Shown in pieces: positions 17,550 to 31,641 of a stretch of DNA of 64,000 nt. Origin of the DNA: an uncultured Planctomycetia bacterium (GTDB lineage Bacteria > Omnitrophota > Gorgyraeia > 1-14-0-20-64-10); the NCBI GenBank assembly GCA_964373715.1, contig CAYJVR010000001.1, positions 21,164-85,163 on the forward strand, written 5' to 3'. Position 1 is the stretch's first letter, and the number at the start of each line of letters is the position of its first letter. The notes under the pieces are model-generated. The model worked only from the letters and a program-made list of their open reading frames with translations, did not search any database and had not been told where the DNA came from. Position numbers and translations under genes: made by a program.

Positions 17550-17729
17550 ATGGATCGATTGATGACAATAGAAGAGGTCGCGGCCTATATGCAGATAAGC
17601 CGGTTCACTGTTTACCGGCTGGCCAAGGATCGTTCCATCCCGGCGACTAAAATTGGTCGGCAGTGGCGTTTCCATAAAGATGAAATTGACCGATGGATGA
17701 GGGAAAGATGCCAAAGAGATCCCCAATAG
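17550..17729 (+). CDS. Small stand-alone helix-turn-helix protein (excisionase/MerR-like HTH_17 family)
   Basis: 59 aa, MDRLMTIEEVAAYMQISRFTVYRLAKDRSIPATKIGRQWRFHKDEIDRWM. Below the ORF-track size cutoff. Overlaps the next gene by 37 nt in another frame. Confidence 0.55.
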   Translation: MDRLMTIEEVAAYMQISRFTVYRLAKDRSIPATKIGRQWRFHKDEIDRWMRERCQRDPQ

Positions 17730-19168
17730 TAAAGTCGGATTTTTCTCTCGTGTCCCGGGGGCTCCGAGAGAAAATGATCGTCGCTTTTTGCCTGATGTCG
17801 GTTGTGCCCCTTTTGGTTCTCATTTACATCGTGACGACTTACGCCACCCCGCATCTAAAGACCTGGTGGGATATCGGGATACTGATAGGCATCTCGGCTG
17901 GCATCTCTGTTTTGGGTTTTGTCGTTACCCGTTCGTTTGTTATCCCGGTTGTGAGATTAGCCGAAGAGGCGAAAACGATTGCCGAAGGTAAGGTAGATCA
18001 GCAGGTGGAAGTGACGACCGAAGATGAGATCGGTGCCCTGGGAAAATCGCTTAATGAAATCACGCATAGGGTCAGGGAGAACATGGCCCAGCTGCAGGTC
18101 TACGGCGAGGAGTCGCGCCATCTGCATTTAGAGATCAACCGCCGGATAGTGACGTTTTCAAACCTTCTGCAGGTCAGTAATCTGATTACCCAATCGGCGA
18201 AGGTGGAGGAGATCGTCGCATTTATTCTGGAGAAGCTCAGCCATTTGGAAGAGGTGGAACTCAACCTCTTTCTCGAGCCTTCCAGCAGCCCAGATCTCTT
18301 TGTCGTCCGGATGGCCATGGGCGCGGACCGATCGAAAGCGGATAAGGCCGCGAACGTCTCGGTTTCTCTTCCTTGGCTCCACCGTTGCGCCTCGGAGAGG
18401 AAGATGCTCGTTCTTGACGCCAATACGGGAATCCAGGAGGAAAAGGATCTTTTATGCCGGTATTTCGGCATGCTGAACGCTGTTTGCCAGCCGCTGGTCG
18501 GCATGGGCAAAGTGATCGGGGTCCTGGTATGCGGAAACTCAAAAGAGAACTTTACTTTTGACGATGACTCGCAGGATATCCTGAGGGTTTTTGCGAAACA
18601 GATGGCGATTGCCATTGAGAACGATCTGCTCGTCAATCGGGCTAAGAAGTTGGAGATCCTCGATGATCTGACCGGACTTTACAATGCCCGTTACTCGAAA
18701 AACCGGCTGGAAGAGGAGATCCATCGGTCCATGAGGTTTCACCACCCCTGCTCCCTCATGATCCTGAATATCGATGGTTTCAAGAAGATCCAGGAGCGTC
18801 ATGGCCAGCAGTCGGCGAATAAGATTCTCGTGCGGGCGGCGGACCTGATACGCGGGGAGCTCAGCGATGTGGATCGGGTAGGGCGCATCGGTCCAGATGA
18901 ATTCTGCCTCATTCTTCCGGAGAGAAACAAGCGGGAGGCTATTCAGCTTGCCGAAAGGATCCGCAAGAAGATCGAGACCAGCGTTTTTGTGAAAGAGGGC
19001 CAGAAAATTCCAGAGCCTTTGACGATCTCGGGAGGGATCAGTGAAAATCCTTTGGATGGTTCAACGAGCGATGAGTTATTCAATAAAGCAATGGAGTTAA
19101 TGAAACTGGCCAAAGTGCAGGGGAAGAACAGGATTAACCCCGATCTTCCAGGCCACACCAAGGTGTGA
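17693..19168 (+). CDS. Membrane sensor with 2 TM, HAMP, GAF-like and GGDEF domains. The GGDEF motif is degenerate (GPDEF), so this is probably a c-di-GMP effector or inactive cyclase.
   Basis: TM helices at aa 28-50 and 60-82, a HAMP segment, and a GGDEF fold (DLTGLYNARY...LNIDGFKKIQERHG...RIGPDEFCLILPE). The signature reads G-P-D-E-F at nt 18890-18904. The RxxD I-site position reads SDVD. Confidence 0.8.
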   Translation: MDEGKMPKRSPIVKSDFSLVSRGLREKMIVAFCLMSVVPLLVLIYIVTTYATPHLKTWWDIGILIGISAGISVLGFVVTRSFVIPVVRLAEEAKTIAEGKVDQQVEVTTEDEIGALGKSLNEITHRVRENMAQLQVYGEESRHLHLEINRRIVTFSNLLQVSNLITQSAKVEEIVAFILEKLSHLEEVELNLFLEPSSSPDLFVVRMAMGADRSKADKAANVSVSLPWLHRCASERKMLVLDANTGIQEEKDLLCRYFGMLNAVCQPLVGMGKVIGVLVCGNSKENFTFDDDSQDILRVFAKQMAIAIENDLLVNRAKKLEILDDLTGLYNARYSKNRLEEEIHRSMRFHHPCSLMILNIDGFKKIQERHGQQSANKILVRAADLIRGELSDVDRVGRIGPDEFCLILPERNKREAIQLAERIRKKIETSVFVKEGQKIPEPLTISGGISENPLDGSTSDELFNKAMELMKLAKVQGKNRINPDLPGHTKV

Positions 19169-19181: not shown

Positions 19182-20291
19182 ATGGGCGCGACAATCATTA
19201 CTCTGCAAGGAGAGACAGCGTTAAAGCCCCAGATGGAGCAGATGCTGAAGCTGATGGTCGAACGGAGAGCCTCAGACCTCCACCTGACAGTGAATTCCCA
19301 CCCGATGCTGCGTGTGGACGAAGGGTTGATCCCCTTAACCGAGTTTCCGGTTTTTTCCGGCGAAGACACGAGAGTTTTTGCCTACAGCCTGTTATTACCC
19401 GAGCAGAAAAAAATGTTCGAAACCAATAGAGAGCTCGACATCTCGTTTGGCGTCAGCGGCATGGGCCGCTTTCGCGTTAACGTTTTTCTCCAGAGGGGAT
19501 CGGTGAGCGTGGCTCTGCGGCTTTTACCGGCAGAAATACGAACATTTGAGCAATGCGGCCTGCCCGGAAAAATCATGGAAGAACTGTGCCGGAGAAAGAG
19601 GGGACTGATCCTGATTACCGGTTCCACTGGGAGCGGAAAATCCACCACGATGGCTTCGATGGTCGAGTGGATCAACAGCAACCGCAGTTGCCACATTATT
19701 ACGGTGGAGGACCCGATCGAGTACGTTTATAAGAATAAAAAAGCGATTGTCGACCAGCGGGAGGTAGGGATGGACACCCATTCTTTCGGCAACGCTTTAA
19801 AGCATATGCTTCGGGAAGACCCCAATGTGATCCTGATCGGAGAAATGCGCGACCTCGAGACGATTGAGTCGGCTCTCAACATCGCGGAAACAGGGCACCT
19901 TGTGCTGGCGACCCTGCACACGAACGACGCTGTCCAGACGGTGAACCGCATCGTGGATGTTTTTCCCTCTCACCAGCAGCAGCAGGTGCGCGTCCAGCTT
20001 TCCTTCGTTTTGCTGGCGGTTATGACCCAGCAGCTGATTCCAAAAGCGGGTGGAATGGGCCGCGTTCTCGGGATAGAAATCCTGATGGCCAATCCGGCTG
20101 TCCGCTCGCTGATCCGTGAAGGGAAAGCGCACCAGATTTATTCGGTGATCCAGACCAGCCATCGGGAAGGGATGAGGACGATGAACCACTCGTTGGCCGA
20201 GATGCATGTCCGAGGTGACGTCTCCTATGAAGAGGCCTTGGGGCGCTCATCCGATCCGGAGGAATTCCTGCGTTTGATTCATCACAAATAA
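19182..20291 (+). CDS. pilT: Type IV pilus retraction ATPase PilT
   Basis: 369 aa. Walker A GSTGSGKST, Asp box, His box (ATLHTNDA), and the PilT-family AIRNLIREGK-like motif. Confidence 0.9.
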   Translation: MGATIITLQGETALKPQMEQMLKLMVERRASDLHLTVNSHPMLRVDEGLIPLTEFPVFSGEDTRVFAYSLLLPEQKKMFETNRELDISFGVSGMGRFRVNVFLQRGSVSVALRLLPAEIRTFEQCGLPGKIMEELCRRKRGLILITGSTGSGKSTTMASMVEWINSNRSCHIITVEDPIEYVYKNKKAIVDQREVGMDTHSFGNALKHMLREDPNVILIGEMRDLETIESALNIAETGHLVLATLHTNDAVQTVNRIVDVFPSHQQQQVRVQLSFVLLAVMTQQLIPKAGGMGRVLGIEILMANPAVRSLIREGKAHQIYSVIQTSHREGMRTMNHSLAEMHVRGDVSYEEALGRSSDPEEFLRLIHHK

Positions 20292-20328: not shown

Positions 20329-20763
20329 ATGATAGCAAAAAAATTGGGCGAACTCCTGGTGGAGCGGAAAGTGATCTCCCCGGAGCAATTAAGCGAGGCA
20401 TTTAAAATTCAGCAGGAGAAGGGCGGCTTGCTGGGGCAGATCCTCGTTGAGCTTGGCTATTCCACGGAGGAGGCTGTCGCCCAAGCGCTTACCGCCCAAT
20501 ACGGTTTCCCGTACCTTCCGCTGAAACATTACGCCATTGACAATGAACTCTTAATCCTTATCCCGGAGAACGTCGCGAAGCAGTATTGTCTGATCCCCGT
20601 CGATAGGATTGGCAACACTCTCACGGTGGCGATGGCGGATCCGTTGAACGCGAAGGCGGTTGAAGACATCGAGATGCTCAGCCGCTGTTCCGTGCAGGTG
20701 TTTGTGACTACGATGAGCGATGTCATTGAGGCGATCGGGCGTTGTTATGGAGCCAAGCCATGA
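20329..20763 (+). CDS. Stand-alone MshEN / GspE-N-terminal (T2SSE_N) domain protein, a putative c-di-GMP receptor
   Basis: 144 aa. KKLGELLVERKVISPEQLSEAFKIQQ and LLGQILVELGYSTEEAVAQALTAQ resemble the two 24-residue MshEN c-di-GMP-binding motifs (RLGxxLVxxGxIxxxxLxxALxxQ). Ends in an ATGA overlap with pilB. Confidence 0.7.
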   Translation: MIAKKLGELLVERKVISPEQLSEAFKIQQEKGGLLGQILVELGYSTEEAVAQALTAQYGFPYLPLKHYAIDNELLILIPENVAKQYCLIPVDRIGNTLTVAMADPLNAKAVEDIEMLSRCSVQVFVTTMSDVIEAIGRCYGAKP

Positions 20764-22496
20764 CCAAACCGGACCCCTTGCAGAAAGCTTCCATGGGGAT
20801 CAGCGAGCGGCTTGCTGGAGTTCTTTTGAGCGAAAAACTTCTCAAGAAGGAGGATATCGAGAAGGCGTTGGCCCTTCAGCGGGAAAAGGGAGGATCTTTA
20901 AGCCAGGTTCTGATCGAGATGGGATTGGTGGAGGCCAAGGCCCTCGCGGCGGTTTTAAGCCGCACACTTCATATACCGATTATAAGTCTCTCAAAAATGG
21001 AATTGGATCCCGACATGGCGAAGCTGATTTCCCGGAAGTTGGCCATCCATTACCAAATTATTCCGGTTTCCCTCATGGGGAAACAGCTCACCGTGGTGAT
21101 GGCCGATCCGATGAATATCCTCGCGCTGGACCATCTCAGCCAGGCGACCGGAATGATCCTGACCCCTTTGATTACCACGCAGGAGGAGGTTCAAGACGCG
21201 CTCAACAGGTTATACGGAGGGGTCATCGCCGATACTCTGCAGGAACTTCAAGGAGGGCCTGTTTCTATCGAGGTTCTTGCCGAGAGGAAAGAGTCCAGCG
21301 GGTCGGAACAGGTCGAGGATCTGATCCGGTTGACAAAGGAAGGTCCTGTTGTTCGGATCACGAACGCGATCCTGACGGAAGGGGTGACTTTGAAGGCAAG
21401 CGATATATTGATCGAACCCTTTGAAAGGCGCCTTCGGATCCGTTACCGGGTCGATGGGGTCTTCCGGGAAGGGCAGTCGCTGCCTCCGGCGATGCATGCT
21501 GGTGTCGTATCGAGGATAAAAGTGATGTCGAACCTGAACATCGCCGAGCACCGTTTGCCGCAGGATGGGCGGATTAAATTCTCAGTGGCGAGTCGGGGTG
21601 TCGATTTCCGCGTTTCTGTCATCCCCACCTATTATGGTGAAAAAGTCTGTCTTCGGATCCTCGATAAGAGCCAAGTAAGGCTCGATGTGGACAAGCTGGG
21701 TTTCGATCCTGAGCCTTTGAGGGTTCTAAAGAAGGCGATGATGCACCCGCACGGGATGGTTTTGATCACCGGGCCGACCGGTTCCGGGAAAACAACGACT
21801 CTTTACGGACTGCTCAGCTTGGTGGATCGGCCGGAAAAGAATCTCGTGACTGTTGAGGATCCGGTGGAATACGACCTGCCGGGGATCAACCAGGTAGCCG
21901 TGCGTTCCGAAATCGGGCTGACCTTCGCTACGGTTTTGCGTTCCATCCTCCGGCAGGACCCGAATGTCATCATGATCGGCGAGATACGGGATGAAGAGAC
22001 GGCAGATATCGCGGTCAAGGCGGCTTTAACCGGGCACCTCGTACTTTCCACACTGCACACGAACGATGCGATCGGTGCGGTGGCCCGGTTGGCCAACATG
22101 GGGATCGAGCCTTATTTGATCGCCTCCTGCGTTCTTTTAGTCGGGGCGCAGAGGCTGCCTCGCCGCGTCTGTCCGCGCTGCAAGCAGCCGGTCCGGCATT
22201 CGAGAGAGCTTCTTGAGCGGATGGCGCTGCCTCTCGATGGCAGTTACATGAAGGGGAAGGGATGCGTCGAATGCCGCAGTACCGGGTTGGCCGGCCGTAT
22301 CGGCCTGCTTGAGGCTGTTCCGATCACCTCGGACCTGCGAAGATTGGTTGACCAGGGGGCTTCTTCCGTTAAGTTGCAGGGGGCTGCTCGGGCTGCCGGC
22401 TTTTATTCGCTCAGAGATTATGCGGTGGCAAAGGCAGTGGCAGGTTTGATCCCTCTGGAAGAGGTGGCCCGCACAACGGTTGGATTTCAAGAATAA
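20760..22496 (+). CDS. pilB: Type IV pilus assembly (extension) ATPase PilB/GspE, copy 1
   Basis: N-terminal GspE_N domain, Walker A GPTGSGKTT, Asp and His boxes, and a tetracysteine Zn motif (CPRC...CVEC). Confidence 0.9.
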   Translation: MTKPDPLQKASMGISERLAGVLLSEKLLKKEDIEKALALQREKGGSLSQVLIEMGLVEAKALAAVLSRTLHIPIISLSKMELDPDMAKLISRKLAIHYQIIPVSLMGKQLTVVMADPMNILALDHLSQATGMILTPLITTQEEVQDALNRLYGGVIADTLQELQGGPVSIEVLAERKESSGSEQVEDLIRLTKEGPVVRITNAILTEGVTLKASDILIEPFERRLRIRYRVDGVFREGQSLPPAMHAGVVSRIKVMSNLNIAEHRLPQDGRIKFSVASRGVDFRVSVIPTYYGEKVCLRILDKSQVRLDVDKLGFDPEPLRVLKKAMMHPHGMVLITGPTGSGKTTTLYGLLSLVDRPEKNLVTVEDPVEYDLPGINQVAVRSEIGLTFATVLRSILRQDPNVIMIGEIRDEETADIAVKAALTGHLVLSTLHTNDAIGAVARLANMGIEPYLIASCVLLVGAQRLPRRVCPRCKQPVRHSRELLERMALPLDGSYMKGKGCVECRSTGLAGRIGLLEAVPITSDLRRLVDQGASSVKLQGAARAAGFYSLRDYAVAKAVAGLIPLEEVARTTVGFQE

Positions 22497-22497
22497 G

Positions 22498-24225
22498 ATG
22501 GCAAACTCATTAAGACAGAAAGTCGTAGATCTCCTTGTCGAGACGTGCGGAGTGGACCGGGAGAAGCTGGAAACCGCGCTGAAATCGCCCAAGGCGAGGG
22601 AGAAGACCCTCAGCCAACTTCTGGTGGAGGAGGGTTTGGTCAGCCAGCAGGACCTTCTCGCCACGCTCGCCGAAGGACTTCACCTGCCGCCGATCAATTT
22701 GGCCCGCTATCAGATTGATCCAGCCCTCTCTGAAGTAATCCCTGAAAGGATGGCCCGCCAATACAGGGTTGTACCCGTTTCCCGGATCGGCAACCGATTG
22801 TCGGTGGCGATGGCCGATCCGATGAATATTTTGGCCTTGGATGATCTGGCGATGACGACCTTGCTCGACATCAGCCCTGTCATCGCGGCGGAAAGGGATG
22901 TGGATCAGGCTATCCAAAAGCTGTATCATCCCGGCTTCTCTCCGGAGGCTTTGAACACCGGTTCCCAGGCTGAATTTATGGGCGGTTCGGAGGAGATGGA
23001 GGAGGAATCCGATTCAGAAGAGGATGTCGTGGATCTGACCGCCTTCGGCATGGCCGGCCAAAAAGCTCCGATCGTTAAGGTGGTGGATATGATGATCATT
23101 GAAGCCTTGAAGGCGCGCGCCAGCGATATCCATGTCGAACCCTATGAGAAAGATATCAGAATCCGGTATCGGGTGGACGGTTCCTTGATAGAGGTTTTTC
23201 GCCTGCCGAAGAGGCACCAGAGCGCTCTCGTCACGCGCTTAAAGATCCTTTCCAAGCTGGACATCACGGAGAACCGACTCCCGCAGGATGGGCGTTTTAA
23301 AGTCCGTTCGGAGAACAGGGAGGTGGACTTCCGCGTTTCCGTGCTTCCGATCTCCTTTGGGAATAAGGTTGTCATGCGCGTGCTGGACAAAGGCAATCTC
23401 TCGGTGGGATTGGAAAAGCTGGGACTGCTGCCGGAGTCCCGCGCCGTTTTTGAGAAGGCGGTTGCCCGGCCCTACGGCATGCTTCTGATCACGGGTCCGA
23501 CGGGAAGCGGGAAATCCACGACCCTCTATTCCGTGTTAGCCCAGATGAATCAGCCGGTCCGAAACATTATGACGATCGAGGACCCGGTGGAGTACCAGGT
23601 GGAGGGTATCACGCAGGTCCAGGTCAACCCGGAGATCGGGCTGACTTTTCCCTCCACGCTGAGGTCATTTCTCCGGCAGGCTCCTGATGTGGTTTTTGTG
23701 GGTGAGATAAGGGACGGCGAAACGGCCGATATCGCGATCAAGGCCTCTCTCACCGGGCAGGTTGTCCTCTCGACTCTTCACACGAATGACGCCTCCAGCT
23801 CCATCACCCGGCTTATAGATATGGGGGTGGATCCCTTCCTGCTGGCTTCCAGCCTTATTTTTGTGGCCGCCCAGCGTTTGTGCCGCCAGGTCTGCCCTCG
23901 GTGCAAAATCCCCGAACAGGTGCCGCCGGAGCGCCTTAAAGCGGCGGGCCTGAAGCTGGAGAAGAACCAGCTCCTTTACAAAGGGCAGGGCTGCAGCTAT
24001 TGCCGTCAAACAGGATTTAGGGGACGCTTCGCTATTTTAGAGGCGATGCTGGTGGACGACGCGATCCGGGAGATGATTATCGCTCGAAAGTCATCCGATG
24101 AGATTAAAACATATGCCGTGGAACGCGGGATGAGAACGCTTCGGCAGGAAGGGCTGGTTCATCTGCTGGATGGCCGGACCAGCTTTGATGAGGTGCAGAG
24201 GGTAACCAGCGAAGACGAGGAGTAA
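22498..24225 (+). CDS. Second PilB/GspE-family ATPase paralog (copy 2)
   Basis: Same architecture: GspE_N, Walker A GPTGSGKST, CPRC...CSYC tetracysteine. About 45-50% identical to copy 1 by eye. An alternative ATG at 22480 is possible. Confidence 0.9.
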   Translation: MANSLRQKVVDLLVETCGVDREKLETALKSPKAREKTLSQLLVEEGLVSQQDLLATLAEGLHLPPINLARYQIDPALSEVIPERMARQYRVVPVSRIGNRLSVAMADPMNILALDDLAMTTLLDISPVIAAERDVDQAIQKLYHPGFSPEALNTGSQAEFMGGSEEMEEESDSEEDVVDLTAFGMAGQKAPIVKVVDMMIIEALKARASDIHVEPYEKDIRIRYRVDGSLIEVFRLPKRHQSALVTRLKILSKLDITENRLPQDGRFKVRSENREVDFRVSVLPISFGNKVVMRVLDKGNLSVGLEKLGLLPESRAVFEKAVARPYGMLLITGPTGSGKSTTLYSVLAQMNQPVRNIMTIEDPVEYQVEGITQVQVNPEIGLTFPSTLRSFLRQAPDVVFVGEIRDGETADIAIKASLTGQVVLSTLHTNDASSSITRLIDMGVDPFLLASSLIFVAAQRLCRQVCPRCKIPEQVPPERLKAAGLKLEKNQLLYKGQGCSYCRQTGFRGRFAILEAMLVDDAIREMIIARKSSDEIKTYAVERGMRTLRQEGLVHLLDGRTSFDEVQRVTSEDEE

Positions 24226-24229
24226 AGCG

Positions 24230-25432
24230 ATGCCTGTTTTTGCTTATGTTGCTAAGATGGACGATGGCCGGACGGTGAAAGGCTTTCTGGAGGCCCACTC
24301 CAAGTCAGCGATGCTCGAAACGCTCCACAGGCAGGGGCTCATCGTTCTGGAGGTTAATATCAAGAAAGTCGCCGGTTCGCCCGCGTTCGGCGGGAGGGTA
24401 AAAGCGGATGACCTGGCTATTTTCTCCCGGCAGCTGGCCACCCTCGTGGATGCCGGTATTCCGATCGTCGGCGGTTTAGAGGCGGTCTCGGACCAACTCG
24501 AAAATCCGCAGCTCCGGCAGGTGGTGATCAAGATCTATGAGGCGGTAGAGGGGGGCATGAACCTGACGGCTGCCATTGCCAAGCAGAACGCCGTTTTCTC
24601 CCCTTTGTTCGTCAACATGGTCAGGGCAGGGGAAGCCAGCGGCCATTTGGCCGATGTTTTGGACCGGCTGGCGACTTATCTTGAAAAGAGCGCCGCCCTT
24701 CAGAGGAAAGTCAAATCGGCCTGTATTTATCCGGCGATCGTTATCTCGATGGCTCTGATCATCACCACGCTGCTGATGATCAAAGTGATCCCCGTTTTTA
24801 AACAGATGTTCGAGCAGTTGGATGTGGATCTTCCTCTCCCGACACAGATTCTCATAGCCACGAGCGACCTGATGGCGGCCTTTTTCCTTCCCGGAATCGG
24901 TTTGATCATCGCGGCGGTTTTTCTTTTCCGCCGCCTGATTAAGACGCCCAATGGGCGCCTTTGGTTCCACCGCTTTTTGCTGAAAGCGGTCATTGTCGGG
25001 CCGATCGTTCGGAAGGTCGCGATTGCCAAATTTGCCCGCACCCTTTCCACGCTTGTCAGAAGCGGTGTTCCGATCCTTTTGGCGCTGGAGATTGTTTCCG
25101 AAACGTCGGGGAACCGCGTGGTGGAGCTGGCTGTTCTTCAGGTGAGGGCCTCGATCAAGGAGGGGGAAAATATCGCGGCACCGCTGGCGGCCAGCAAGGT
25201 TTTCCCCCCGCTTGTTGTCCGGATGATTGCCGTGGGGGAGCAGACCGGCCGGCTGGATGACATGCTCACCAAGATTGCCGAGTTTTATGAAGATCAGGCA
25301 GATACGGCAATAGCGGGACTGACTAGCGCCATCGAGCCGTTGATCATTGCCGTTTTAGGTGTTGTGGTGGGAGGCATCGTGATTTCGATCTTCCTGCCGA
25401 TCTTCAAACTGACGCAGGTATTTTCAGGCTAG
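24230..25432 (+). CDS. pilC: Type IV pilus inner-membrane platform protein PilC/GspF
   Basis: 400 aa with two repeated GspF domains and 3 TM segments. Lies directly after the ATPases. Confidence 0.9.
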   Translation: MPVFAYVAKMDDGRTVKGFLEAHSKSAMLETLHRQGLIVLEVNIKKVAGSPAFGGRVKADDLAIFSRQLATLVDAGIPIVGGLEAVSDQLENPQLRQVVIKIYEAVEGGMNLTAAIAKQNAVFSPLFVNMVRAGEASGHLADVLDRLATYLEKSAALQRKVKSACIYPAIVISMALIITTLLMIKVIPVFKQMFEQLDVDLPLPTQILIATSDLMAAFFLPGIGLIIAAVFLFRRLIKTPNGRLWFHRFLLKAVIVGPIVRKVAIAKFARTLSTLVRSGVPILLALEIVSETSGNRVVELAVLQVRASIKEGENIAAPLAASKVFPPLVVRMIAVGEQTGRLDDMLTKIAEFYEDQADTAIAGLTSAIEPLIIAVLGVVVGGIVISIFLPIFKLTQVFSG

Positions 25433-25576
25433 ATTTATAGCCAAATTTTTGTTAATTAACCCCCATTTAATTTCTTTAGAAAAGTCAGGTATACTTCAAA
25501 TCAGAGGTTATTAGATTATTGTAATTCATTAGATATAAATGAGTTGTGTAAAATTCGTAAATGGGAGGATTATAAA
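25433..25576 (+). promoter_or_regulatory. AT-rich (about 25% GC) leader/promoter region of the major pilin gene
   Basis: 144-bp AT-rich gap ending in a GGGAGG RBS 8 nt before the pilin ATG. No clear GG-N10-GC sigma-54 box was seen. Confidence 0.3.
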
Positions 25577-26017
25577 ATGCATACTCTAAATCGTAAGAAC
25601 TCCAAGGGTTTTACGCTCGTGGAGATCATGATCGTAGTCGCTATTATCGCGCTCATCGCAGCCATCGCGGTTCCTAACCTTTTGAGAGCGCGCCATAACG
25701 CCAATGAGACCGCGGCCATCGGAAATGTGAGGACGCTGCTGTCATCCTTGGAGTCGTTCCGGGCGGCGCAGAGCCCTCCAGCTTATCCGGATGCTTTGGA
25801 TGAGTTGAGCGCTGCGGATCCCCAGTATGTGCCGGATGAGCTGACGGATGGTGATCAGCAAGGATATGATTTTATTTTCACCCAGGTCAGCGATAACGAG
25901 TATACCCTGATTGCTACTCCAACAGTGGATGGCGTGACGGGAACGCGGCATTTCTTCGTGGACCAGACGGGTGTTATCCGGGTTGGTGATGACGACACGG
26001 GTACGCCGATCGAATAA
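25577..26017 (+). CDS. pilA: Type IV major pilin (PilA-like prepilin)
   Basis: 146 aa. Leader MHTLNRKNSKG followed by FTLVEIMIVVAIIALIAAIAVPNLL (class III signal: G-1, F+1, E+5). Strong RBS. Confidence 0.85.
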   Translation: MHTLNRKNSKGFTLVEIMIVVAIIALIAAIAVPNLLRARHNANETAAIGNVRTLLSSLESFRAAQSPPAYPDALDELSAADPQYVPDELTDGDQQGYDFIFTQVSDNEYTLIATPTVDGVTGTRHFFVDQTGVIRVGDDDTGTPIE

Positions 26018-26028
26018 ACAGCGGAGAG

Positions 26029-26101
26029 GCGCTAGCTTAACGCTAGCATGCCCAAACATGCAGGGGCGGCGACCCAAAGGTTGCCGCCCCTGCATGTTTG
26101 G
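26029..26101 (+). terminator. Compound stem-loop after the major pilin gene: a 6-bp gctagc hairpin plus a perfect 19-bp-stem hairpin. No T-tract, so it is more likely an attenuator or mRNA-stabilising element.
   Basis: gctagc(26031-36)-ttaac-gctagc(26042-47). Then ccaaacatgcaggggcggc (26052-26070) pairs with gccgcccctgcatgtttgg (26083-26101) around a 12-nt loop. Confidence 0.55.
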
Positions 26102-26119
26102 AGTGGGAAAGGGCGATCC

Positions 26120-26533
26120 ATGATTTTTCCCGGGGTGGATAAAAGAAGGCGCAGTGCGTCAGGCTTCACGCTGATCGAAGTATTGGTCGGCATGGCGGTT
26201 TTTGTCACGGCGCTTGTCGTTTTGTTGGGGATATACACCGGTATCGCTGCTCTCAGGGAATCGGGCCGGAATACGACCCAAGCGGTGGCGGATGCGAGGG
26301 CCGTTCTGGAAGCGATGAGGGACAGGTCGTCGACCGGTTTGTCTAACGTAACTGCGCAGGATTGGACCCAGTGGGCCGAAGATAACGGGTTGACCTCTCT
26401 TGACAGTGAGGTGATCACTGTCGATTACGTGGATACGTCAGCAGATCCGCTGGAAATCACGGTTCAGGTGGATTGGGTGGAGCGGGTAAGGGAGCGCTCG
26501 ATGACCATCAGCACTTTGATGACGCAGAGGTGA
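26120..26533 (+). CDS. Minor pilin / pseudopilin (GspI/PilV-like)
   Basis: 137 aa. MIFPGVDKRRRSASG followed by FTLIEVLVGMAVFV prepilin signal. The ORF-track start at 26048 lies inside the hairpin and was rejected. Confidence 0.7.
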   Translation: MIFPGVDKRRRSASGFTLIEVLVGMAVFVTALVVLLGIYTGIAALRESGRNTTQAVADARAVLEAMRDRSSTGLSNVTAQDWTQWAEDNGLTSLDSEVITVDYVDTSADPLEITVQVDWVERVRERSMTISTLMTQR

Positions 26534-26535
26534 GA

Positions 26536-27090
26536 ATGGATTTGATCCGGCACAGAGGCGGTTTTACCTTGATGGAGATGATGGTGACTATGTCGATCGT
26601 CGTCGGCATTTCAGGAGTGCTTGTGGCGGTTTTTCGGATGAACCAGCAATGCTGGGAGGTGGCTCAGGCCCACCTGTCTGTTTCGATGGAGCTCCGGAGG
26701 GGGATGGACGAGATGAGCCGGGAGTTGACCTCCACGCAGGTGGCCCAGGTGGATATCCCGGCGGACGGTACCTGGTACCCCTCGATCACCTTTTCGGTGC
26801 CGGAGGATGTGGATGGGGACGGAACCGTGCTGGATTCCTCCGGGGCGATGGAGTGGTCGGACTCGATTACCTACTCGTTAGGGGGGGAGACTGAGGAACA
26901 GGCGCTCCGGGAACAGGACGGGGAGTTGGACCGGGTTATCGCCAACGGCGTGACGGAACTTGAGTTTAAAAGAGACGCGGCGACTCCGACTGTGGTCGAA
27001 GTGCGCATCTCGGTTGAAAAGGTTGTTCATACGAAAGACTTTCCTCATACAGCGACCTTGTCAACCCGTGTTCGGCTGAGGAATAACTGA
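26536..27090 (+). CDS. Minor pilin / pseudopilin (GspJ/PilW-like)
   Basis: 184 aa. MDLIRHRGG followed by FTLMEMMVTMSIVVG prepilin signal. Size and position fit a J-type minor pilin. Confidence 0.7.
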   Translation: MDLIRHRGGFTLMEMMVTMSIVVGISGVLVAVFRMNQQCWEVAQAHLSVSMELRRGMDEMSRELTSTQVAQVDIPADGTWYPSITFSVPEDVDGDGTVLDSSGAMEWSDSITYSLGGETEEQALREQDGELDRVIANGVTELEFKRDAATPTVVEVRISVEKVVHTKDFPHTATLSTRVRLRNN

Positions 27091-27127: not shown

Positions 27128-28177
27128 ATGAAAACCGTTTGCGGTAGGCGGACGAAAGAACGGGGCTTCATTCTGCTGACCCTCTCCATGATGCTTCCTG
27201 CCTTTCTCATCTTGGCTGGAGGGGTGATGGCGTATGTGTGGACCGATTCGAGGGCCTCGCAAAGATCCGAAGCCTCCATGCAGGCGCTTTATTTGGCGGA
27301 GGCGGGGGTCGATCAGGCGATATTGGAGCTCACCGATAATTTTGACTGGGCCGGAGGCGAAGGGAATCTCGAGAGAGCGGGGGAATACAGCGTCACTGTG
27401 GAGTCGCTGCCGAACAGCCGGAGGAGAATCCTTTCCCAGGGAACGAGCGATAATCTGGGCGCCCTCGTGGGCCGGACCGTCGAGGTGATTGTGGAGCAGT
27501 ACCCGCCTCCCGATTTCTACGAATACGTCATCTGGGCGGCGCAGGATTTCGACCTTAAGGGCAACTCCTACAGTGTGACCGGCAAGGTCAAGCACGGCGA
27601 CACGTCGCCCACGAACAACACGGGGAATGTGATCGGGCCGATCGTCTACGACCCAAAAGCGAACCCCCTGCCGAAGCTGAGCTATCAAAAGCTCTATGAA
27701 ATGGCGCAGGGGCAGGGGAATGTCTACGATGCCGCCCGGATCGGCAACGGGCACGGCGTTTTCCCGACATCGTTCTGGTACCAGGCGCCAACCGACCCGA
27801 ACGACCCGACCACCGGGATCCCGAACATAAACTACATCACGACCGACTTGGTGCTCAACGGCAATATCGGGACGATCGGGGGATTCTTCGTTGTGGTCGG
27901 CGACGTGATTACGAATCCGTCATCCGTCGAGGATACGACGCTCAACGGAAACGGCCGGGTGGCAGGGGCCATCTATTCCAGGGGGGACTTCCGCGTCAAT
28001 GGGGGAGGAGCCAGGCTGAATGTGGATGGCGGGATCTGGGCGGGCCAGCAGGCCAGGCTGAACGGGAAAGTGACGATGACCTACAACTGGAACTATATGC
28101 ACGCGATCCAAGGGCTGAATCTCGAGCCGGATGTTACGGTGATTTCTTGGAGCGAAAGAGAGAATCAAGCGGAATAG
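27128..28177 (+). CDS. PilX_N / GspK-like minor-pilin tip-complex protein, paralog 1
   Basis: N-terminal ERGFILLTLSMMLPAFLILAGGVMAYVWTDSRASQRSEASMQALYLAEAGVDQAILEL matches the PilX N-terminal domain. Confidence 0.7.
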   Translation: MKTVCGRRTKERGFILLTLSMMLPAFLILAGGVMAYVWTDSRASQRSEASMQALYLAEAGVDQAILELTDNFDWAGGEGNLERAGEYSVTVESLPNSRRRILSQGTSDNLGALVGRTVEVIVEQYPPPDFYEYVIWAAQDFDLKGNSYSVTGKVKHGDTSPTNNTGNVIGPIVYDPKANPLPKLSYQKLYEMAQGQGNVYDAARIGNGHGVFPTSFWYQAPTDPNDPTTGIPNINYITTDLVLNGNIGTIGGFFVVVGDVITNPSSVEDTTLNGNGRVAGAIYSRGDFRVNGGGARLNVDGGIWAGQQARLNGKVTMTYNWNYMHAIQGLNLEPDVTVISWSERENQAE

Positions 28178-28216
28178 GCGGCCGGAGGTTCTTAAGTCCC
28201 GAATGAAAGGAGACCT

Positions 28217-29269
28217 ATGGCTGGAGTATGGATTCGCCTGAAATCACAAAGCGGTTTCATGCTGATCACGATTTACATGATGATTCCGTTGCTGCTTGTG
28301 ATGGTCGGGGCGATTGTGGCCTACGCGTTTTCCGATCTGCACGCCGCCCAGCGGTCGCAGGCGGACATGCAGGCGCTGTACATGGCTGAGGCCGGAATTG
28401 ATGATGCGTTGGTGCAGCTGCGGGACAGTTACAGCTGGACCGGAGGCTCCGGAGTCGGCGCTGGGGGAGAATACTCGGTCACGGTCGAGGATCTCGGCAG
28501 CAGCCGTTTGCGGGTAATGGCTACCGGGATGGCTGACAAACTGCTCGCTGCGGCGGTCAGCCATGCTGTCGAAATCATCGTGGAACAGGCTATCCCGCCG
28601 AATTTCTACGATAACGCGGTTTGGGCTTCGCAGAACCTGGATTTCAAAGGGAACGCGTATTCTGTTGCGGGGGCCGTCCGCCACGGGGATACGACGCCTT
28701 CTTCGACCGGGAACGTCAATGGGTCCGTTACCTACGATCCGGACACCAACCCGTTGCCGCGGCTCGATTTCGAACAGATCTACGAGATTGCGCAGGCGCA
28801 GGGAAATGTCTACGATGCTGCCCGGATTGGCAATGGGCACAATGTTTTTCCGACGTCGTTCTGGTACCAGCAGCCGACCGATCCGACCGACCCGACCACC
28901 GGGGTCCCGAACGTGAACTACATCACGACTGATTTGGTGCTTAACGGCAATATCGGAACGATCGGCGGTTTCTTCGTTGTCGTCGGGGATGTGATTACCG
29001 ATCCCTTCGCTGTCGAGGATACGACGATCAACGGCAACGGACAGGTTGCGGGAGCGATCTATTCCAGGGGGGACTTCCGGGTCACCGGCGGTGGAAATGG
29101 CCTGAACGTCAACGGTAGCGTATGGGCGGGAGACGAAACCCGTTTAAACGGCAAGGTGACAATGACGTACAACTGGGATTACATGCACGCGATAGAGGGG
29201 CTGGGCATCAACCCGGATGTCACCGTTATCTCCTGGCAGGATGGAGGATCGGTCCAAGAGGACGAGTAG
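28217..29269 (+). CDS. PilX_N / GspK-like protein, paralog 2 (recent tandem duplicate of paralog 1)
   Basis: About 70% aa identity to paralog 1. The C-terminal half is nearly identical, and also at the DNA level (for example 27700-27915 versus 28790-29000). Confidence 0.7.
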   Translation: MAGVWIRLKSQSGFMLITIYMMIPLLLVMVGAIVAYAFSDLHAAQRSQADMQALYMAEAGIDDALVQLRDSYSWTGGSGVGAGGEYSVTVEDLGSSRLRVMATGMADKLLAAAVSHAVEIIVEQAIPPNFYDNAVWASQNLDFKGNAYSVAGAVRHGDTTPSSTGNVNGSVTYDPDTNPLPRLDFEQIYEIAQAQGNVYDAARIGNGHNVFPTSFWYQQPTDPTDPTTGVPNVNYITTDLVLNGNIGTIGGFFVVVGDVITDPFAVEDTTINGNGQVAGAIYSRGDFRVTGGGNGLNVNGSVWAGDETRLNGKVTMTYNWDYMHAIEGLGINPDVTVISWQDGGSVQEDE

Positions 29270-29314
29270 CGCTCAAAGAACCCGCCACATAGATTATTTC
29301 GGAGGTGAATCCGG

Positions 29315-30448
29315 GTGTACTCAACGAGGAAAGCCCAAAAAGGGTTTGTTCTGGTCACGATCTACCTGCTGGTCCCGCTGCTGATCATTATGTCGACCAG
29401 CTTGGTCGCTTTCGTGCTCCAGGATATCCGTTCCGCCCAACGGGTTTGGGCGGCCACGGAGGCTTTTTTTCTGGCGGAGGCCGGGATTGACCGGGCTATC
29501 GCGGAGCTCAAAGAGGATGCCGCCTGGACGAGTGGGTTTTCTGAGGAGCCGCTGAACTCGATGGGAACCTACACGGTGACCGTGGAGGATCTCGGCAGCG
29601 GCCGGTTCCGGCTCACGACCGAGGGCAGCAGCGAGCTGCTTTCCGCGCCGGTTGTCAGAACGATCGAAGCGGTTGTGGCGGTGTTTCCGGCCGGCCTGTT
29701 CAATTTCGCCCTCTTCGGCGATGACAGCGTTACGCTGACCGGCAACGCCATGACCGACAGCTATGATTCCTCCGAAGGTTCGTACAATGCGGCGACCGCC
29801 GGTTCCGAAGGAGATGTCGGCACCAACGGGATTGCTGCCGGAAGCATCACGCTGAACGGAAATGCCCGCGTGAAGGGAGATGCGCTGATCGGGTCTGAGG
29901 GGGATCCGGATACCGGCATCACGATGACCGGCAACTCCGTGATCACGGGGATTCAGGGAACCGAGGATGAAGAGAAGGATTTCCCCGAGGTGACGATCCC
30001 TGAGGGGGTTTCCAATGGCGGTTCGTTGAGCGTGTCGGGCAACAAGACCAAGACCTATCCTGCTGGCACCTACTGGTGGTCGAGCATATCGGTTTCCGGC
30101 AACGGTCGGCTGCAGTTTACCGGCCCCGCGGTTGTTTACGTCACCGGCAATGTGAGCATCAGCGGAAACGGGATAAACACCTCAAGCAACCTGCCGACCA
30201 ACCTGCTGATTTTCGTTGCTGGGAACCAGAGCGTCAGCGTTTCGGGCAACGGCAATTTTTACGGCGGGATTTATGCCCCGGACTCCAACGTGCACATTTC
30301 CGGCAACGGCGCTTTTTACGGCGCCGTGATGGGCAAGACAGCGACCAACAACGGCAATGGCGGGGTCCATTACGACACGGCTTTGCGGGACGCCGTTTCC
30401 AGCGATGGTGCCGAAGTCGATATCCTTTCCTGGCGGGATCTTTCCTAA
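29315..30448 (+). CDS. PilX_N-domain protein, paralog 3, with a divergent C-terminus rich in T/SGN repeats (beta-helix-like)
   Basis: GTG start with a GGAGG RBS. N-terminal QKGFVLVTIYLLVPLLIIMSTSLVAFVLQDIRSAQRVWAATEAFFLAEAGIDRAIAEL. C-terminal repeats VTLTGNA / VSGNG / ISGNG. Confidence 0.65.
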   Translation: MYSTRKAQKGFVLVTIYLLVPLLIIMSTSLVAFVLQDIRSAQRVWAATEAFFLAEAGIDRAIAELKEDAAWTSGFSEEPLNSMGTYTVTVEDLGSGRFRLTTEGSSELLSAPVVRTIEAVVAVFPAGLFNFALFGDDSVTLTGNAMTDSYDSSEGSYNAATAGSEGDVGTNGIAAGSITLNGNARVKGDALIGSEGDPDTGITMTGNSVITGIQGTEDEEKDFPEVTIPEGVSNGGSLSVSGNKTKTYPAGTYWWSSISVSGNGRLQFTGPAVVYVTGNVSISGNGINTSSNLPTNLLIFVAGNQSVSVSGNGNFYGGIYAPDSNVHISGNGAFYGAVMGKTATNNGNGGVHYDTALRDAVSSDGAEVDILSWRDLS

Positions 30449-31619: not shown

Positions 31620-31641
31620 GGAGTTTCTTTCGAGGCCGCGC

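What the first reader, a model, noticed from the sequence alone, without database searches (positions are those of the whole stretch)
20760..24225. Tandem duplicated PilB/GspE extension ATPases
Two full-length PilB-type ATPases (577 and 575 aa) are adjacent and co-directional. Each has a GspE_N domain, Walker A/B, Asp and His boxes, and a tetracysteine motif. They are clearly diverged paralogs, not a recent duplicate. Most T4aP systems use a single PilB. Paired extension ATPases could form hetero-hexamers, power different pilin sets (two pilin paralogs exist here), or differ in c-di-GMP responsiveness. The MshEN-like motifs differ between the two N-domains.
Basis: seen in the sequence. Interest (0 to 1): 0.6.

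Follow-up and report, generated by a model that had tools for sequence, protein, structure and literature searches.

The report
Conserved paired pilus-extension motors in Omnitrophota
Two adjacent, anciently diverged copies of the motor that builds type IV pili, preceded by a separate small c-di-GMP-sensor gene, form a fixed three-gene unit in Omnitrophota relatives, which suggests that these bacteria extend one pilus with two non-interchangeable motors.

Summary
Window 20760-22496 (578 aa) and 22498-24225 (575 aa) encode two complete PilB-type ATPases, 44% identical and 1 nt apart. Both are type IVa pilus PilB, not T2SS GspE and not TfpB. The pair is not a local oddity: in 70 of 70 related loci with enough sequence, PilB2 directly follows PilB1. 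Each copy forms its own clade. The two are as far from each other as from PilBs of other phyla, and both evolve slowly.

- A 144-aa stand-alone MshEN gene (20329-20763) overlaps the PilB1 start by 4 nt. It keeps the two glycines shown to be essential for c-di-GMP binding. Motif I glycine is absent from every PilB1 and PilB2 examined.
- Each copy has fixed replacements at residues that are near-invariant in single-copy PilBs. These are H203L in PilB1, and E281, N364, D387 and H413 in PilB2. Both keep the whole catalytic set.
- The upstream "diguanylate cyclase" has a degenerate GGDEF signature.

Best reading: two obligate partner motors, possibly a hetero-hexamer, on one pilus machine, with c-di-GMP sensed in trans. 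This is a new variant of a known kind; the closest precedents are Acinetobacter PilB+TfpB and PilT/PilU.

The parts
17693..19168 (+). Membrane HAMP-GAF-GGDEF protein with a degenerate active-site signature (GPDEF). It opens the tightly spaced gene run.
   Evidence: Pfam finds HAMP, GAF and GGDEF (114 bits). The signature reads GPDEF here; among 43 aligned sequences (this one plus 42 orthologs) only one has canonical GGDEF, and there is no RxxD I-site. It is conserved upstream of the motor genes in most related loci.
19182..20291 (+). PilT retraction ATPase.
   Evidence: TIGR01420 scores 474 bits against a cutoff of 319. It is present at this position only in the window's sub-clade of loci.
20329..20763 (+). 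Stand-alone MshEN protein (144 aa), the predicted c-di-GMP receptor. Its stop overlaps the PilB1 start (ATGA).
   Evidence: NCBIfam c-di-GMP motif NF053729 scores 65 bits against a cutoff of 38 at aa 5-57, and Pfam MshEN covers aa 58-142. It matches PDB 5HTL MshEN (1.5e-15) and PilF GSPII-B 8PDK (5.9e-11). It lies upstream of PilB1 in 69 of 70 loci with room. The family has 4214 hits, and the 120 best listed are all 144-160 aa.
20341..20499 (+). 53-residue c-di-GMP-binding motif pair of the stand-alone protein: KLGELLVERKVISPEQLSEAFKIQ-QEKGG-LLGQILVELGYSTEEAVAQALTAQ.
   Evidence: Gly3 and Gln24 are present in both motifs. Position 1 is K in motif I and L in motif II, as in the 6 nM binder PilF GSPII-B (K167/L196). 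Across orthologs, motif I Gly is present in 120/120 and motif II Gly in 117/120.
20760..22496 (+). PilB1, a T4aP extension ATPase paralog (578 aa).
   Evidence: Identified. It has Walker A at aa 338-345, EDPVE at 366-370, Walker B plus Glu at 403-411, His box TGHLVLSTLHT at 424-434, and CPRC/CVEC. Its clade-specific mark is ASDIL where single-copy PilBs have ASDIH (L217, equivalent to Geobacter H203): L in 120/120 orthologs.
22498..24225 (+). PilB2, a T4aP extension ATPase paralog (575 aa).
   Evidence: Identified. Its catalytic set is intact. Its clade-specific marks are FGNK (E281 lost), GITQ (N364T), RQAPD (D387 lost), TGQ (H413Q) and GKS.
24230..25432 (+). PilC platform protein. It is the only one in the cluster.
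   Evidence: Pfam T2SSF scores 214 bits with two repeats. NCBIfam GspF and PilC models score about 400 bits.
25544..27090 (+). Three pilin-like genes (25544-26017, 26048-26533, 26473-27090).
   Evidence: Pfam N_methyl motif hits. The third is just below the Pfam cutoff and its start is uncertain.
27128..30448 (+). Three large proteins of unknown or minor-pilin-associated type (27128-28177, 28217-29269, 29315-30448).
   Evidence: Two have no Pfam hit and the third matches DUF7305. Proteins at the same position in L001 carry DUF4900 and PilX_N.
30504..35112 (+). PilM, PilN, PilO, a PilP-like protein and the secretin.
   Evidence: Pfam PilM_2, PilN, PilO, a weak T2SSB/CdsD_C hit, and Secretin plus STN plus Secretin_N.

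Best explanation
PilB1 and PilB2 are two ancient, co-inherited and non-redundant extension ATPases. They serve one type IVa pilus machine, which has a single PilC, one PilMNO set and one secretin.

Shown:
- Both keep every residue known to be needed for ATP binding and hydrolysis.
- Each has fixed a different set of replacements at residues that single-copy PilBs almost never change.
- Both evolve slowly and at equal rates.
- The two genes are always adjacent, usually only a few nucleotides apart.

Inferred:
- Neither copy can replace the other, and they act as an obligate two-motor module. This could be a mixed hexamer, or two homo-hexamers that take turns on PilC (for example initiation versus processive extension, as proposed for TfpB and PilB in Acinetobacter). 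I put about 0.3 on each of these two forms.
- Control by c-di-GMP has been moved off the motors. Both N1 domains lost the glycine needed for binding. A separately translated MshEN protein, coupled to PilB1 by an ATGA overlap, keeps a high-affinity-type site and presumably docks onto the motor or its platform to license extension. In most relatives a REC-HD-GYP phosphodiesterase lies between PilB2 and PilC, and a degenerate GGDEF membrane protein lies upstream, so the motor genes are embedded in a c-di-GMP signalling module.
For: Identity as PilB:
- TIGR02538 PilB scores 604 and 629, above TIGR02533 GspE at 568 and 581.
- The best solved relatives are Geobacter and Myxococcus PilB (488-538 bits), against EpsE/GspE at 353-398 bits.
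- E. coli GspE and HofB fall outside both clades.
- The cluster has PilT, PilC, pilins, PilMNO and a secretin.

Co-inheritance:
- The same cassette appears in L001 and L002, in Omnitrophota genome loci and in about 75 metagenome loci.
- PilB2 follows PilB1 in 70/70 loci with room, and the stand-alone MshEN precedes PilB1 in 69/70.
- The median PilB1-PilB2 spacer is 7 nt.

Age of the duplication:
- Each copy is monophyletic (bootstrap 69 and 98).
- The PilB1-PilB2 distance (0.955) is about the same as the distance of either copy to PilBs of other phyla (0.94).

Constraint: within-clade distances are 0.45 for both copies, against 0.60 for RodA and 0.79 for PBP2.

Reciprocal fixed changes, in two independent data sets:
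- H203 is L in 120/120 PilB1 and H in 118/118 PilB2.
- E281, D387 and N364 are kept in 118-120 of 120 PilB1 and in 0/118 PilB2.
- H413 is H in 120/120 PilB1, and Q, E or H in 100, 12 and 6 of 118 PilB2.
- K331, E357, E395, R271, R286, H420, T411 and R455 are kept in both.
- H413 lies in the His-box segment that forms inter-chain contacts, and D387 lies in the RxDPD motif, where the PilT contact residue R195 probably sits.

Sensor in trans:
- Motif I Gly is present in 120/120 stand-alone proteins, 0/120 PilB1 and 0/120 PilB2.
- Mutating Gly11 abolishes c-di-GMP binding in MshE.
- The K/L pattern at motif position 1 matches the 6 nM binder PilF GSPII-B.
- The REC-HD-GYP gene is supported.

Precedent: two extension motors act on one pilus in A. 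baylyi.
Against: - There is no experimental data. No Omnitrophota member with this cassette is genetically tractable.
- Distance-matrix co-evolution gave no special PilB1-PilB2 signal: partial r is 0.37, against 0.55 for PilB1-PilC.
- The best-studied paralog pair, PilT/PilU, forms separate homo-hexamers (title of PMC6821130).
- The C2-symmetric 2+2+2 cycle described for PilB does not fit a strictly alternating A-B ring.
- The curated c-di-GMP-motif HMM still matches 50/51 PilB1 and 39/51 PilB2 N-termini at E<=1e-9. Loss of binding therefore rests on the glycine positions alone. Motif II Gly survives in 33/120 PilB1 and 51/120 PilB2.
- The roles of H203, E281, N364 and D387 are not documented in the papers read.
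- This window has no HD-GYP gene, and its GGDEF protein is probably inactive, so the source of c-di-GMP is not in the locus.
- The tree is neighbour-joining only and its deep nodes are unresolved, so acquisition of one copy by transfer cannot be excluded.
Confidence: 0.55

Rival explanations
1. The two copies are independent motors. Each forms its own homo-hexamer and builds a different filament, for example from the different pilin paralogs downstream, or works under different conditions. On this view adjacency reflects only co-regulation.
For: - Several pilin-like genes follow PilC, and another lies at 39512-39979.
- Bacteria with several PilBs usually dedicate them to separate machines.
- PilT and PilU are homo-hexamers.
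Against: - There is only one PilC, one PilMNO set and one secretin in the cluster.
- Extension ATPases are normally specific for their own platform.
- Strict 70/70 adjacency with a median 7-nt spacer over deep divergence and equal evolutionary rates point to stoichiometric co-use.
Confidence: 0.2
2. PilB2 is no longer a conventional extension motor. With its altered His box and the loss of E281, N364 and D387, it would be a weak ATPase acting as a regulator or adaptor of PilB1, or as the retraction-direction motor in cassettes that lack PilT.
For: - PilB2 carries four to five clade-wide replacements at positions that are 97-100% conserved in single-copy PilBs, including the first His of the His box.
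- Most related cassettes have no PilT within 10 kb.
- Tad-type CpaF shows that one ATPase of this family can drive both directions (abstracts listed).
Against: - PilB2 keeps the Walker A Lys, the Mg-binding E357, the catalytic E395, both Arg fingers, H420 and the zinc-binding cysteines.
- It scores higher than PilB1 on the PilB HMM and against solved PilBs.
- It evolves as slowly as PilB1.
- PilB1 has its own loss of an invariant His (H203).
- In this window PilT is present.
Confidence: 0.12
3. One copy is really a type II secretion GspE, with the rest of the T2SS encoded elsewhere.
For: - Both proteins also score highly on the GspE model (568 and 581 bits).
- Some database records name relatives GspE/PulE.
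Against: - Both copies score higher on PilB than on GspE and fall below the GspE cutoff of 630.
- Solved PilBs beat solved GspE/EpsE by 100-180 bits.
- E. coli GspE lies outside both clades.
- There are no gspC/L/M genes in the window.
- Both copies are always together next to PilC and PilMNO.
Confidence: 0.02
4. The pair is a recent redundant duplication or an assembly artefact.
For: None beyond the adjacency itself.
Against: - The copies are 44% identical.
- Each is monophyletic across more than 50 loci from many samples.
- Both are under strong constraint.
Confidence: 0.01

Closest known systems
Acinetobacter baylyi PilB + TfpB (two extension motors on one T4aP; Ellison et al. 2021, PMC8213720)
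   Same: Two phylogenetically distinct PilB-family ATPases are both needed for normal extension of one pilus. They are non-interchangeable, and whether they form hetero-oligomers is an open question.
   Different: Neither window protein is a TfpB: the NF053534 model gives 404 and 441 bits against a cutoff of 850. Here the two genes are fixed as a tandem pair with near-zero spacing in every related locus with room. They also come with a split-off MshEN sensor. The pair arose separately from TfpB, within or near this lineage.
PilT / PilU tandem retraction ATPases
   Same: These are adjacent paralogous hexameric motors of the same superfamily acting on one pilus, where the second depends on the first.
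   Different: They drive retraction, not extension, and are reported as separate homo-hexamers (PMC6821130, title). They have no N1 or MshEN domain.
Thermus thermophilus PilF (one ATPase with three N-terminal GSPII/MshEN domains)
   Same: Several MshEN modules serve one motor with unequal c-di-GMP affinity. The stand-alone protein shares the K/L deviation at motif position 1 with GSPII-B, the 6 nM binder.
   Different: In PilF all domains are fused in one chain. Here three MshEN domains lie on three polypeptides, and the ones fused to the ATPases lack the essential glycine.
FimX-PilZ-PilB (Xanthomonas, Pseudomonas)
   Same: c-di-GMP is sensed by a separate protein that then acts on PilB, and a degenerate GGDEF protein is involved (abstract of PMC8389850).
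   Different: The receptor domain there is EAL/PilZ, not MshEN. The partners are not encoded as a translationally coupled unit with the motor.
Vibrio cholerae MshE, Myxococcus xanthus PilB, Clostridium perfringens PilB2
   Same: These are PilB-family motors regulated by c-di-GMP through an MshEN domain.
   Different: In those proteins the binding site is in cis, on the motor's own N-terminus, with glycines intact. 64 of 78 and 53 of 78 single-copy PilBs sampled here keep the two glycines.

Membership tests
Type IVa pilus assembly ATPase PilB (TIGR02538) | Full-length match to the PilB equivalog model above its curated cutoff | tested here: not met
   Scores are 604.3 (PilB1) and 629.2 (PilB2) bits against a cutoff of 675.65. 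This is the best-scoring model for both and covers the full length, positions 2-563 of 564.
Type IVa pilus assembly ATPase PilB (TIGR02538) | N1(MshEN)-N2-CTD architecture with Walker A, Asp box, atypical Walker B plus catalytic Glu, His box and a tetracysteine motif | tested here: met
   One exception: in PilB2 the first His of the His box is Gln.
Type IVa pilus assembly ATPase PilB (TIGR02538) | Closest solved relatives are PilB, and the gene lies in a T4aP cluster (PilT, PilC, PilMNO, secretin, pilins) | tested here: met
   PDB 5TSG, 5ZFR and 3JC8 score 488-538 bits. The gene context is shown.
Type II secretion ATPase GspE (TIGR02533) | Score above the GspE cutoff, and grouping with GspE in a tree | tested here: not met
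   Scores are 567.8 and 580.9 against a cutoff of 630.25. E. coli GspE branches outside both clades. EpsE/GspE structures score 353-398 bits, against 488-538 for PilB.
Type II secretion ATPase GspE (TIGR02533) | Neighbouring gspC/L/M genes | tested here: not met
   None is found among the annotated ORFs of the window.
TfpB second extension motor (NF053534) | Score above the TfpB equivalog cutoff | tested here: not met
   Scores are 404.4 and 441.2 against a cutoff of 850.
MshEN c-di-GMP receptor domain: stand-alone protein 20329-20763 | Match to the 53-residue c-di-GMP motif model above cutoff, plus the MshEN_C subdomain | tested here: met
   NF053729 scores 65 bits against a cutoff of 38, and PF05157 scores 73.6 bits. 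PDB 5HTL matches at 1.5e-15.
MshEN c-di-GMP receptor domain: stand-alone protein 20329-20763 | Gly at position 3 and Gln at position 24 of both 24-residue motifs, and R/K/L at position 1 | tested here: met
   The motifs read KLG...Q and LLG...Q. In orthologs Gly is present in 120/120 and 117/120. The rules come from PMC5013675 and PMC11731258.
MshEN c-di-GMP receptor domain: stand-alone protein 20329-20763 | Actual binding of c-di-GMP | not testable with these tools
   Needs ITC or DRaCALA.
MshEN c-di-GMP receptor domain: N1 domains of PilB1 and PilB2 | Gly at position 3 of motif I (Gly11 of MshE, whose mutation abolishes binding) | tested here: not met
   The window has RLA and KVV at these positions. 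Gly is present in 0/51 and 0/120 for each paralog. The HMM still matches the fold.
Diguanylate cyclase (GGDEF domain): 17693-19168 | GGDEF domain present | tested here: met
   PF00990 scores 113.8 bits and TIGR00254 scores 111.5 bits.
Diguanylate cyclase (GGDEF domain): 17693-19168 | Catalytic GG(D/E)EF signature | tested here: not met
   The window has GPDEF. Only 1 of 43 aligned sequences has GGDEF, and there is no RxxD I-site.
PilT/PilU retraction ATPase (TIGR01420): 19182-20291 | Score above the subfamily cutoff | tested here: met
   474.3 bits against a cutoff of 319.1.

The most novel reading that the evidence does not exclude
PilB1 and PilB2 assemble into one obligate hetero-hexameric extension motor. 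This would be the first heteromeric ring in the PilT/VirB11 ATPase family. The reciprocal losses (H203 in PilB1; E281, N364, D387 and H413 in PilB2) would mark asymmetric N2D-CTD and His-box interfaces. The stand-alone MshEN protein would be a detachable third subunit that delivers a nanomolar c-di-GMP signal in trans. This would amount to a three-polypeptide version of the triple-GSPII motor PilF, fixed across a phylum of ultra-small, probably host-attached bacteria.
Probability: 0.27. Interest if true: 0.8.

Novelty: new variant of a known kind. Interest (0 to 1): 0.6.

Why it matters
A 2024 review of PilB control asks whether two extension ATPases acting on one pilus work as separate hexamers or as hetero-oligomers. 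The only studied case, PilB and TfpB in Acinetobacter, has not settled this.

The Omnitrophota pair is a natural, strongly constrained test case. The two genes are always adjacent, and their fixed complementary substitutions include positions in or beside elements that mediate inter-subunit coupling. They could be co-expressed and examined by pull-down and cryo-EM without needing the uncultured host.

The locus also shows a route by which c-di-GMP control is detached from the motor and placed on a small separate MshEN protein. That would extend the known repertoire of MshEN receptors.

Type IVa pili are proposed to mediate host attachment in predatory or parasitic Omnitrophota. The module is therefore likely central to their lifestyle. 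It is currently mis-annotated as "TadA", "GspE" or "hypothetical" in public records.

Tried and rejected
- Co-evolution test. I correlated pairwise distance matrices of PilB1, PilB2, MshEN and PilC across 19 loci, controlling for RodA and PBP2. All were dominated by shared phylogeny. The PilB1-PilB2 partial r of 0.37 is not higher than PilB1-PilC at 0.55, so the test is uninformative.
- Curated HMM test of c-di-GMP competence. NF053729 at E<=1e-9 matches 71/71 stand-alone proteins, but also 50/51 PilB1 and 39/51 PilB2 N-termini. The model recognises the fold and does not discriminate binding competence. The argument therefore had to rest on the experimentally validated glycines.
- Genome-collection scan with a PilB1 alignment. 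These were useful as outgroups, but not for a survey of Omnitrophota genomes.
- Promoter and terminator scan of 17000-27000. Counts were at chance level. The only suggestive site is a terminator-like hairpin at the end of pilC (25427-25442).
- Full-text search for the ASDIH motif to learn the role of H203. It returned nothing relevant.
- Initial reading of 17693-19168 as an active diguanylate cyclase feeding the sensor. I rejected this after finding the degenerate signature.
- The idea that the upstream ORFs of Verrucomicrobiota PilBs are equivalent sensors. I rejected this because they carry only the MshEN_C part, without the binding motif.
- T2SS GspE and TfpB assignments. Both were rejected.
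- Structure prediction was not run. The tool returns no coordinates or inter-chain contacts and accepts single chains only, so it could not address the hetero-oligomer question.

Full report
**1. The observation**

Window 20760-22496 and 22498-24225 hold two co-directional ORFs of 578 and 575 aa. The first starts at an ATG that overlaps the stop of the upstream gene (ATGA). The second starts 1 nt after the stop of the first. Gene calls on public contigs carrying the identical upstream protein use the same PilB1 start.

The two proteins are 44% identical over 550 residues. Both have Pfam MshEN plus T2SSE domains. Both have Walker A, the EDPVE Asp box, the atypical Walker B with catalytic Glu, and two CxxC pairs. 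Copy 1 is 578 aa, not 577. The His box of copy 2 reads TGQ...HT rather than TGH...HT.

**2. What the two proteins are**

- Both score best on the T4aP PilB equivalog model (604 and 629 bits). This is ahead of T2SS GspE (568 and 581) and far ahead of TfpB (404 and 441 against a cutoff of 850). All scores are below the strict equivalog cutoffs, so these are divergent members.
- Among solved structures, Geobacter and Myxococcus PilB score 488-538 bits, against 353-398 for Vibrio EpsE/GspE.
- The gene neighbourhood, all on the + strand, reads: MreB, MreC, PBP2, RodA, a HAMP-GAF-GGDEF protein, PilT (474 bits against a cutoff of 319), a 144-aa MshEN-only protein, PilB1, PilB2, one PilC, three pilin-like genes, three large unknown proteins, PilM, PilN, PilO, a PilP-like protein and a secretin.
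- No gspC/L/M genes and no further T2SSE ATPase were found among the other ORFs annotated in the window.
- The closest database relatives are all from Candidatus Omnitrophota MAGs.

**3. The pair is a conserved unit**

Contigs carrying orthologs at 83% and 54% identity have the same order: GGDEF protein, PilT, MshEN, PilB1, PilB2, PilC. A genome scan and a metagenome scan gave 163 loci, which I mapped with phmmer using the window proteins as queries.

- Of 81 loci with a PilB1-type gene, 70 have PilB2 immediately downstream.
- The other 11 end within 400 nt of PilB1, so there is no room for a second gene.
- None has room but lacks PilB2.
- The stand-alone MshEN gene lies immediately upstream in 69 of 70 loci with room.
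- The median PilB1-PilB2 spacer is 7 nt, and 35 of 51 spacers are at most 21 nt.
- About 70 loci from other phyla (Myxococcota, Desulfobacterota, Nitrospirota, Verrucomicrobiota, Firmicutes and others) show the ordinary single PilB, often followed by PilT and PilC. One Verrucomicrobiae locus (L010) has three PilB-like genes within 12 kb.

A neighbour-joining tree was built from 183 sequences and 557 columns, rooted on PilT, with E. coli GspE and HofB added from annotated records.

- PilB1 is monophyletic at bootstrap 69 and PilB2 at bootstrap 98.
- The two together are not resolved as one clade (bootstrap 13).
- The mean PilB1-PilB2 distance (0.955) equals the distance of either copy to single PilBs of other phyla (0.94).
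- Both sit in a weakly resolved group with Verrucomicrobiota and Hydrogenedentes PilBs. E. coli GspE and HofB lie outside.

The duplication, or a transfer of one copy, therefore predates the diversification of the sampled lineage. In 19 loci with all genes present, both copies evolve at the same rate (0.45). That is slower than RodA (0.60) and PBP2 (0.79), so neither copy is decaying.

**4. Paralog-specific fixed substitutions**

The 78 single-copy PilBs have 101 alignment sites that are at least 95% conserved. Single-copy proteins deviate at a median of 0 of these sites (range 0-6). PilB1 sequences deviate at a median of 8, and PilB2 at a median of 7.

I mapped positions to Geobacter PilB numbering through the alignment to 5TSG. 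The states below were confirmed on independent sets of 120 and 118 orthologs from the protein database.

| Position (motif) | PilB1 | PilB2 |
|---|---|---|
| H203 (ASDIH) | L in 120/120 | H in 118/118 |
| E281 (GEK) | E in 118/120 | E in 0/118 (N, G or Q) |
| N364 (GINQ) | N in 120/120 | T in 118/118 |
| D387 (RQDPD) | D in 120/120 | D in 0/118 (A, S or N) |
| H413 (TGH) | H in 120/120 | Q 100, E 12, H 6 |
| T332 (GKT) | T in 113/120 | S in 116/118 |

R250 is replaced in PilB2 and in about half of PilB1 sequences.

The following residues are kept in essentially all members of both clades:
- Walker A Lys (K331)
- the Mg-binding E357
- the catalytic E395
- both Arg fingers (R271, R286)
- H420, T411 and R455
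- the four zinc-binding cysteines

According to McCallum et al., T411 of one chain inserts between H413 and H420 at the closed interface. The His-box and Asp-box segments, and PilT residue R195, make the contacts between packing units. By my approximate numbering, R195 lies in or beside the RxDPD motif. At least H413, and probably D387, therefore lie in elements that couple neighbouring subunits. The roles of H203, E281 and N364 were not found in the literature available here.

**5. The c-di-GMP module**

*The stand-alone sensor.* The 144-aa protein (20329-20763) is a complete MshEN domain.
- The curated c-di-GMP motif model scores 65 bits against a cutoff of 38 over aa 5-57. Pfam MshEN covers aa 58-142.
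- It matches the c-di-GMP-bound structures of V. cholerae MshEN (5HTL, 1.5e-15) and Thermus PilF GSPII-B (8PDK, 5.9e-11).
- Wang et al. showed that mutating Gly11 abrogates binding and that the G11L and G40I variants show little or no binding, whereas changes at Arg9 or Gln32 cost less than five-fold.
- Neissner et al. extended the consensus to (R/K/L)LG. They showed that K at position 1 of motif I and L at position 1 of motif II, as in GSPII-B, give a Kd of 6 nM.
- The window protein reads KLG...Q / LLG...Q.
- Across orthologs, motif I Gly is present in 120/120 and motif II Gly in 117/120, and motif II starts with L in 117/120. In the locus set the glycine figures are 73/75 and 70/75.

*The motors' own N1 domains.*
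- Motif I Gly is absent from all PilB1 (0/51, 0/120) and all PilB2 (0/51, 0/120). The window has RLA and KVV at these positions.
- Motif II Gly is mostly replaced. In the locus set it survives in 1/51 PilB1 and 4/51 PilB2. In the database set it survives in 33/120 and 51/120.
- Single-copy PilBs of other phyla keep the glycines in 64/78 and 53/78.

*Caveat.* The curated HMM still matches most PilB1 and PilB2 N-termini. The predicted loss of binding therefore rests on the glycines alone.

*Flanking signalling genes.*
- The upstream GGDEF protein is probably not a cyclase. Its signature is GPDEF here and is variable in orthologs (GDNEF, GDDEF, SGDTF and others). Canonical GGDEF appears in 1 of 43 aligned sequences, and there is no I-site.
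- In 31 of 45 relatives where PilC is visible, a gene of about 1.1 kb sits between PilB2 and PilC. The examples inspected encode REC plus HD-GYP, with HHEHYDGTGYP present.
- The window's sub-clade instead has PilT after the GGDEF gene and no HD-GYP.

*Variants in other loci.*
- Some loci carry a second stand-alone MshEN between PilB2 and PilC.
- One locus has a two-MshEN protein followed by an ATPase-only PilB.
- Hydrogenedentes and Nitrospirales loci have an MshEN-DnaA-like ATPase protein with an intact motif upstream of a PilB whose motif II is degenerate.

**6. Mechanism**

Shown:
- Two catalytically complete PilB paralogs occur with one platform protein.
- They are strictly co-inherited and tightly spaced.
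- Both are under strong, equal constraint.
- Each has a distinct, fixed change at otherwise invariant sites.
- An intact MshEN site is present only on a separate protein.

Inferred:
- The two motors are non-redundant partners on one T4aP machine.
- The stand-alone MshEN protein conveys c-di-GMP status to them in trans.

Whether the partners form a mixed ring or two cooperating homo-hexamers cannot be decided here. The substitution pattern and the translational coupling favour a mixed ring. The PilT/PilU precedent, and the C2 two-by-two catalytic cycle, which does not fit a strictly alternating ring, argue against it.

**7. Comparison and novelty**

- Two extension motors on one pilus are known from A. 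baylyi (PilB and TfpB), and a 2024 review leaves hetero-oligomerisation open.
- PilT/PilU is the analogue on the retraction side.
- PilF shows several MshEN modules per motor.
- FimX-PilZ-PilB shows sensing in trans.

What appears new is the combination of three features:
- a tandem PilB pair fixed across this lineage;
- reciprocal substitutions, some in or beside elements that couple neighbouring subunits;
- a detached high-affinity-type MshEN subunit.

The two Omnitrophota genome papers in the library report that T4aP are nearly universal in the phylum and link them to host attachment. They never mention PilB duplication or c-di-GMP. I rate this a new variant of a known kind.

**8. Limits**

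- The tree is distance-based, with few named references.
- The metagenome loci carry no taxonomy, and one related locus is labelled Planctomycetia.
- The phylum-wide distribution was not tabulated per genome.
- No structure coordinates were available to place the substituted residues.
- All functional statements are predictions.

Noticed in passing
window 17693-19168: The HAMP-GAF-GGDEF protein that any annotation pipeline would call a diguanylate cyclase has GPDEF instead of GG(D/E)EF. Its orthologs show a highly variable signature, with canonical GGDEF in 1 of 43 aligned sequences, and there is no RxxD I-site. It is probably a non-catalytic sensor or adaptor.
   Followed up: yes
L092 12523-13593 and the same position in about 30 other loci: Most relatives have a REC plus HD-GYP phosphodiesterase gene inserted between PilB2 and PilC, and no PilT in the cassette. 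The window's sub-clade has PilT after the GGDEF gene and no HD-GYP.
   Followed up: partly
L012 13873-14304; L147 14064-14516; L149 14022-14474: A second stand-alone MshEN gene with intact Gly and Gln motifs lies between PilB2 and PilC in some Omnitrophota loci.
   Followed up: partly
L021 207-2627: This locus has a split PilB. A 366-aa protein made of two MshEN domains with an intact motif is followed by a 411-aa ATPase-only PilB, then PilC.
   Followed up: partly
L007 298-3078; L009 8278-9942: In Hydrogenedentes and Nitrospirales MAGs, a protein combining an intact MshEN c-di-GMP motif with a DnaA-like AAA ATPase domain sits directly upstream of a single PilB whose own motif II glycine is lost.
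   Followed up: partly
L010 10145-21168: A Verrucomicrobiae MAG carries three PilB-like genes within 12 kb, two of them in a PilB-PilT-PilB-PilC arrangement. Multi-PilB clusters therefore exist outside Omnitrophota, but not as a direct tandem.
   Followed up: no
window 11995-17342 and the same position in L001, L002 and many L08x-L15x loci: In the related loci long enough to show it, the pilus cluster lies directly downstream of the cell-shape genes pbp2 and rodA (preceded by mreBCD in the window and L001). This linkage is conserved over deep divergence.
   Followed up: no
database records for P0003, P0243, P0158 and others: NCBI records name these PilBs 'Flp pilus assembly complex ATPase component TadA' or 'GspE/PulE family protein', and name the stand-alone MshEN 'hypothetical protein'. 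JGI calls the 150-aa protein 'PilB'. These names are misleading.
   Followed up: yes
window 27128-30448: Three consecutive proteins of about 350-377 aa lie between the pilins and PilM. Two have no Pfam hit and one matches only DUF7305. The corresponding genes in L001 carry DUF4900 and PilX_N, so these may be tip or minor-pilin-associated proteins.
   Followed up: no
window 39512-39979: An additional pilin-like gene with an N_methyl motif lies 4 kb downstream of the cluster, after MgtE, RNase G and a TPR-peptidase gene.
   Followed up: no
window 1-64000: Every ORF assigned a function lies on the + strand, and GC skew is positive in all 32 two-kb bins. This is consistent with one long co-oriented stretch on the leading strand.
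   Followed up: no
L146 7785-9968: This is the only locus with room upstream of PilB1 that lacks the stand-alone MshEN gene. The 2.2 kb between RodA and PilB1 were not examined.
   Followed up: no
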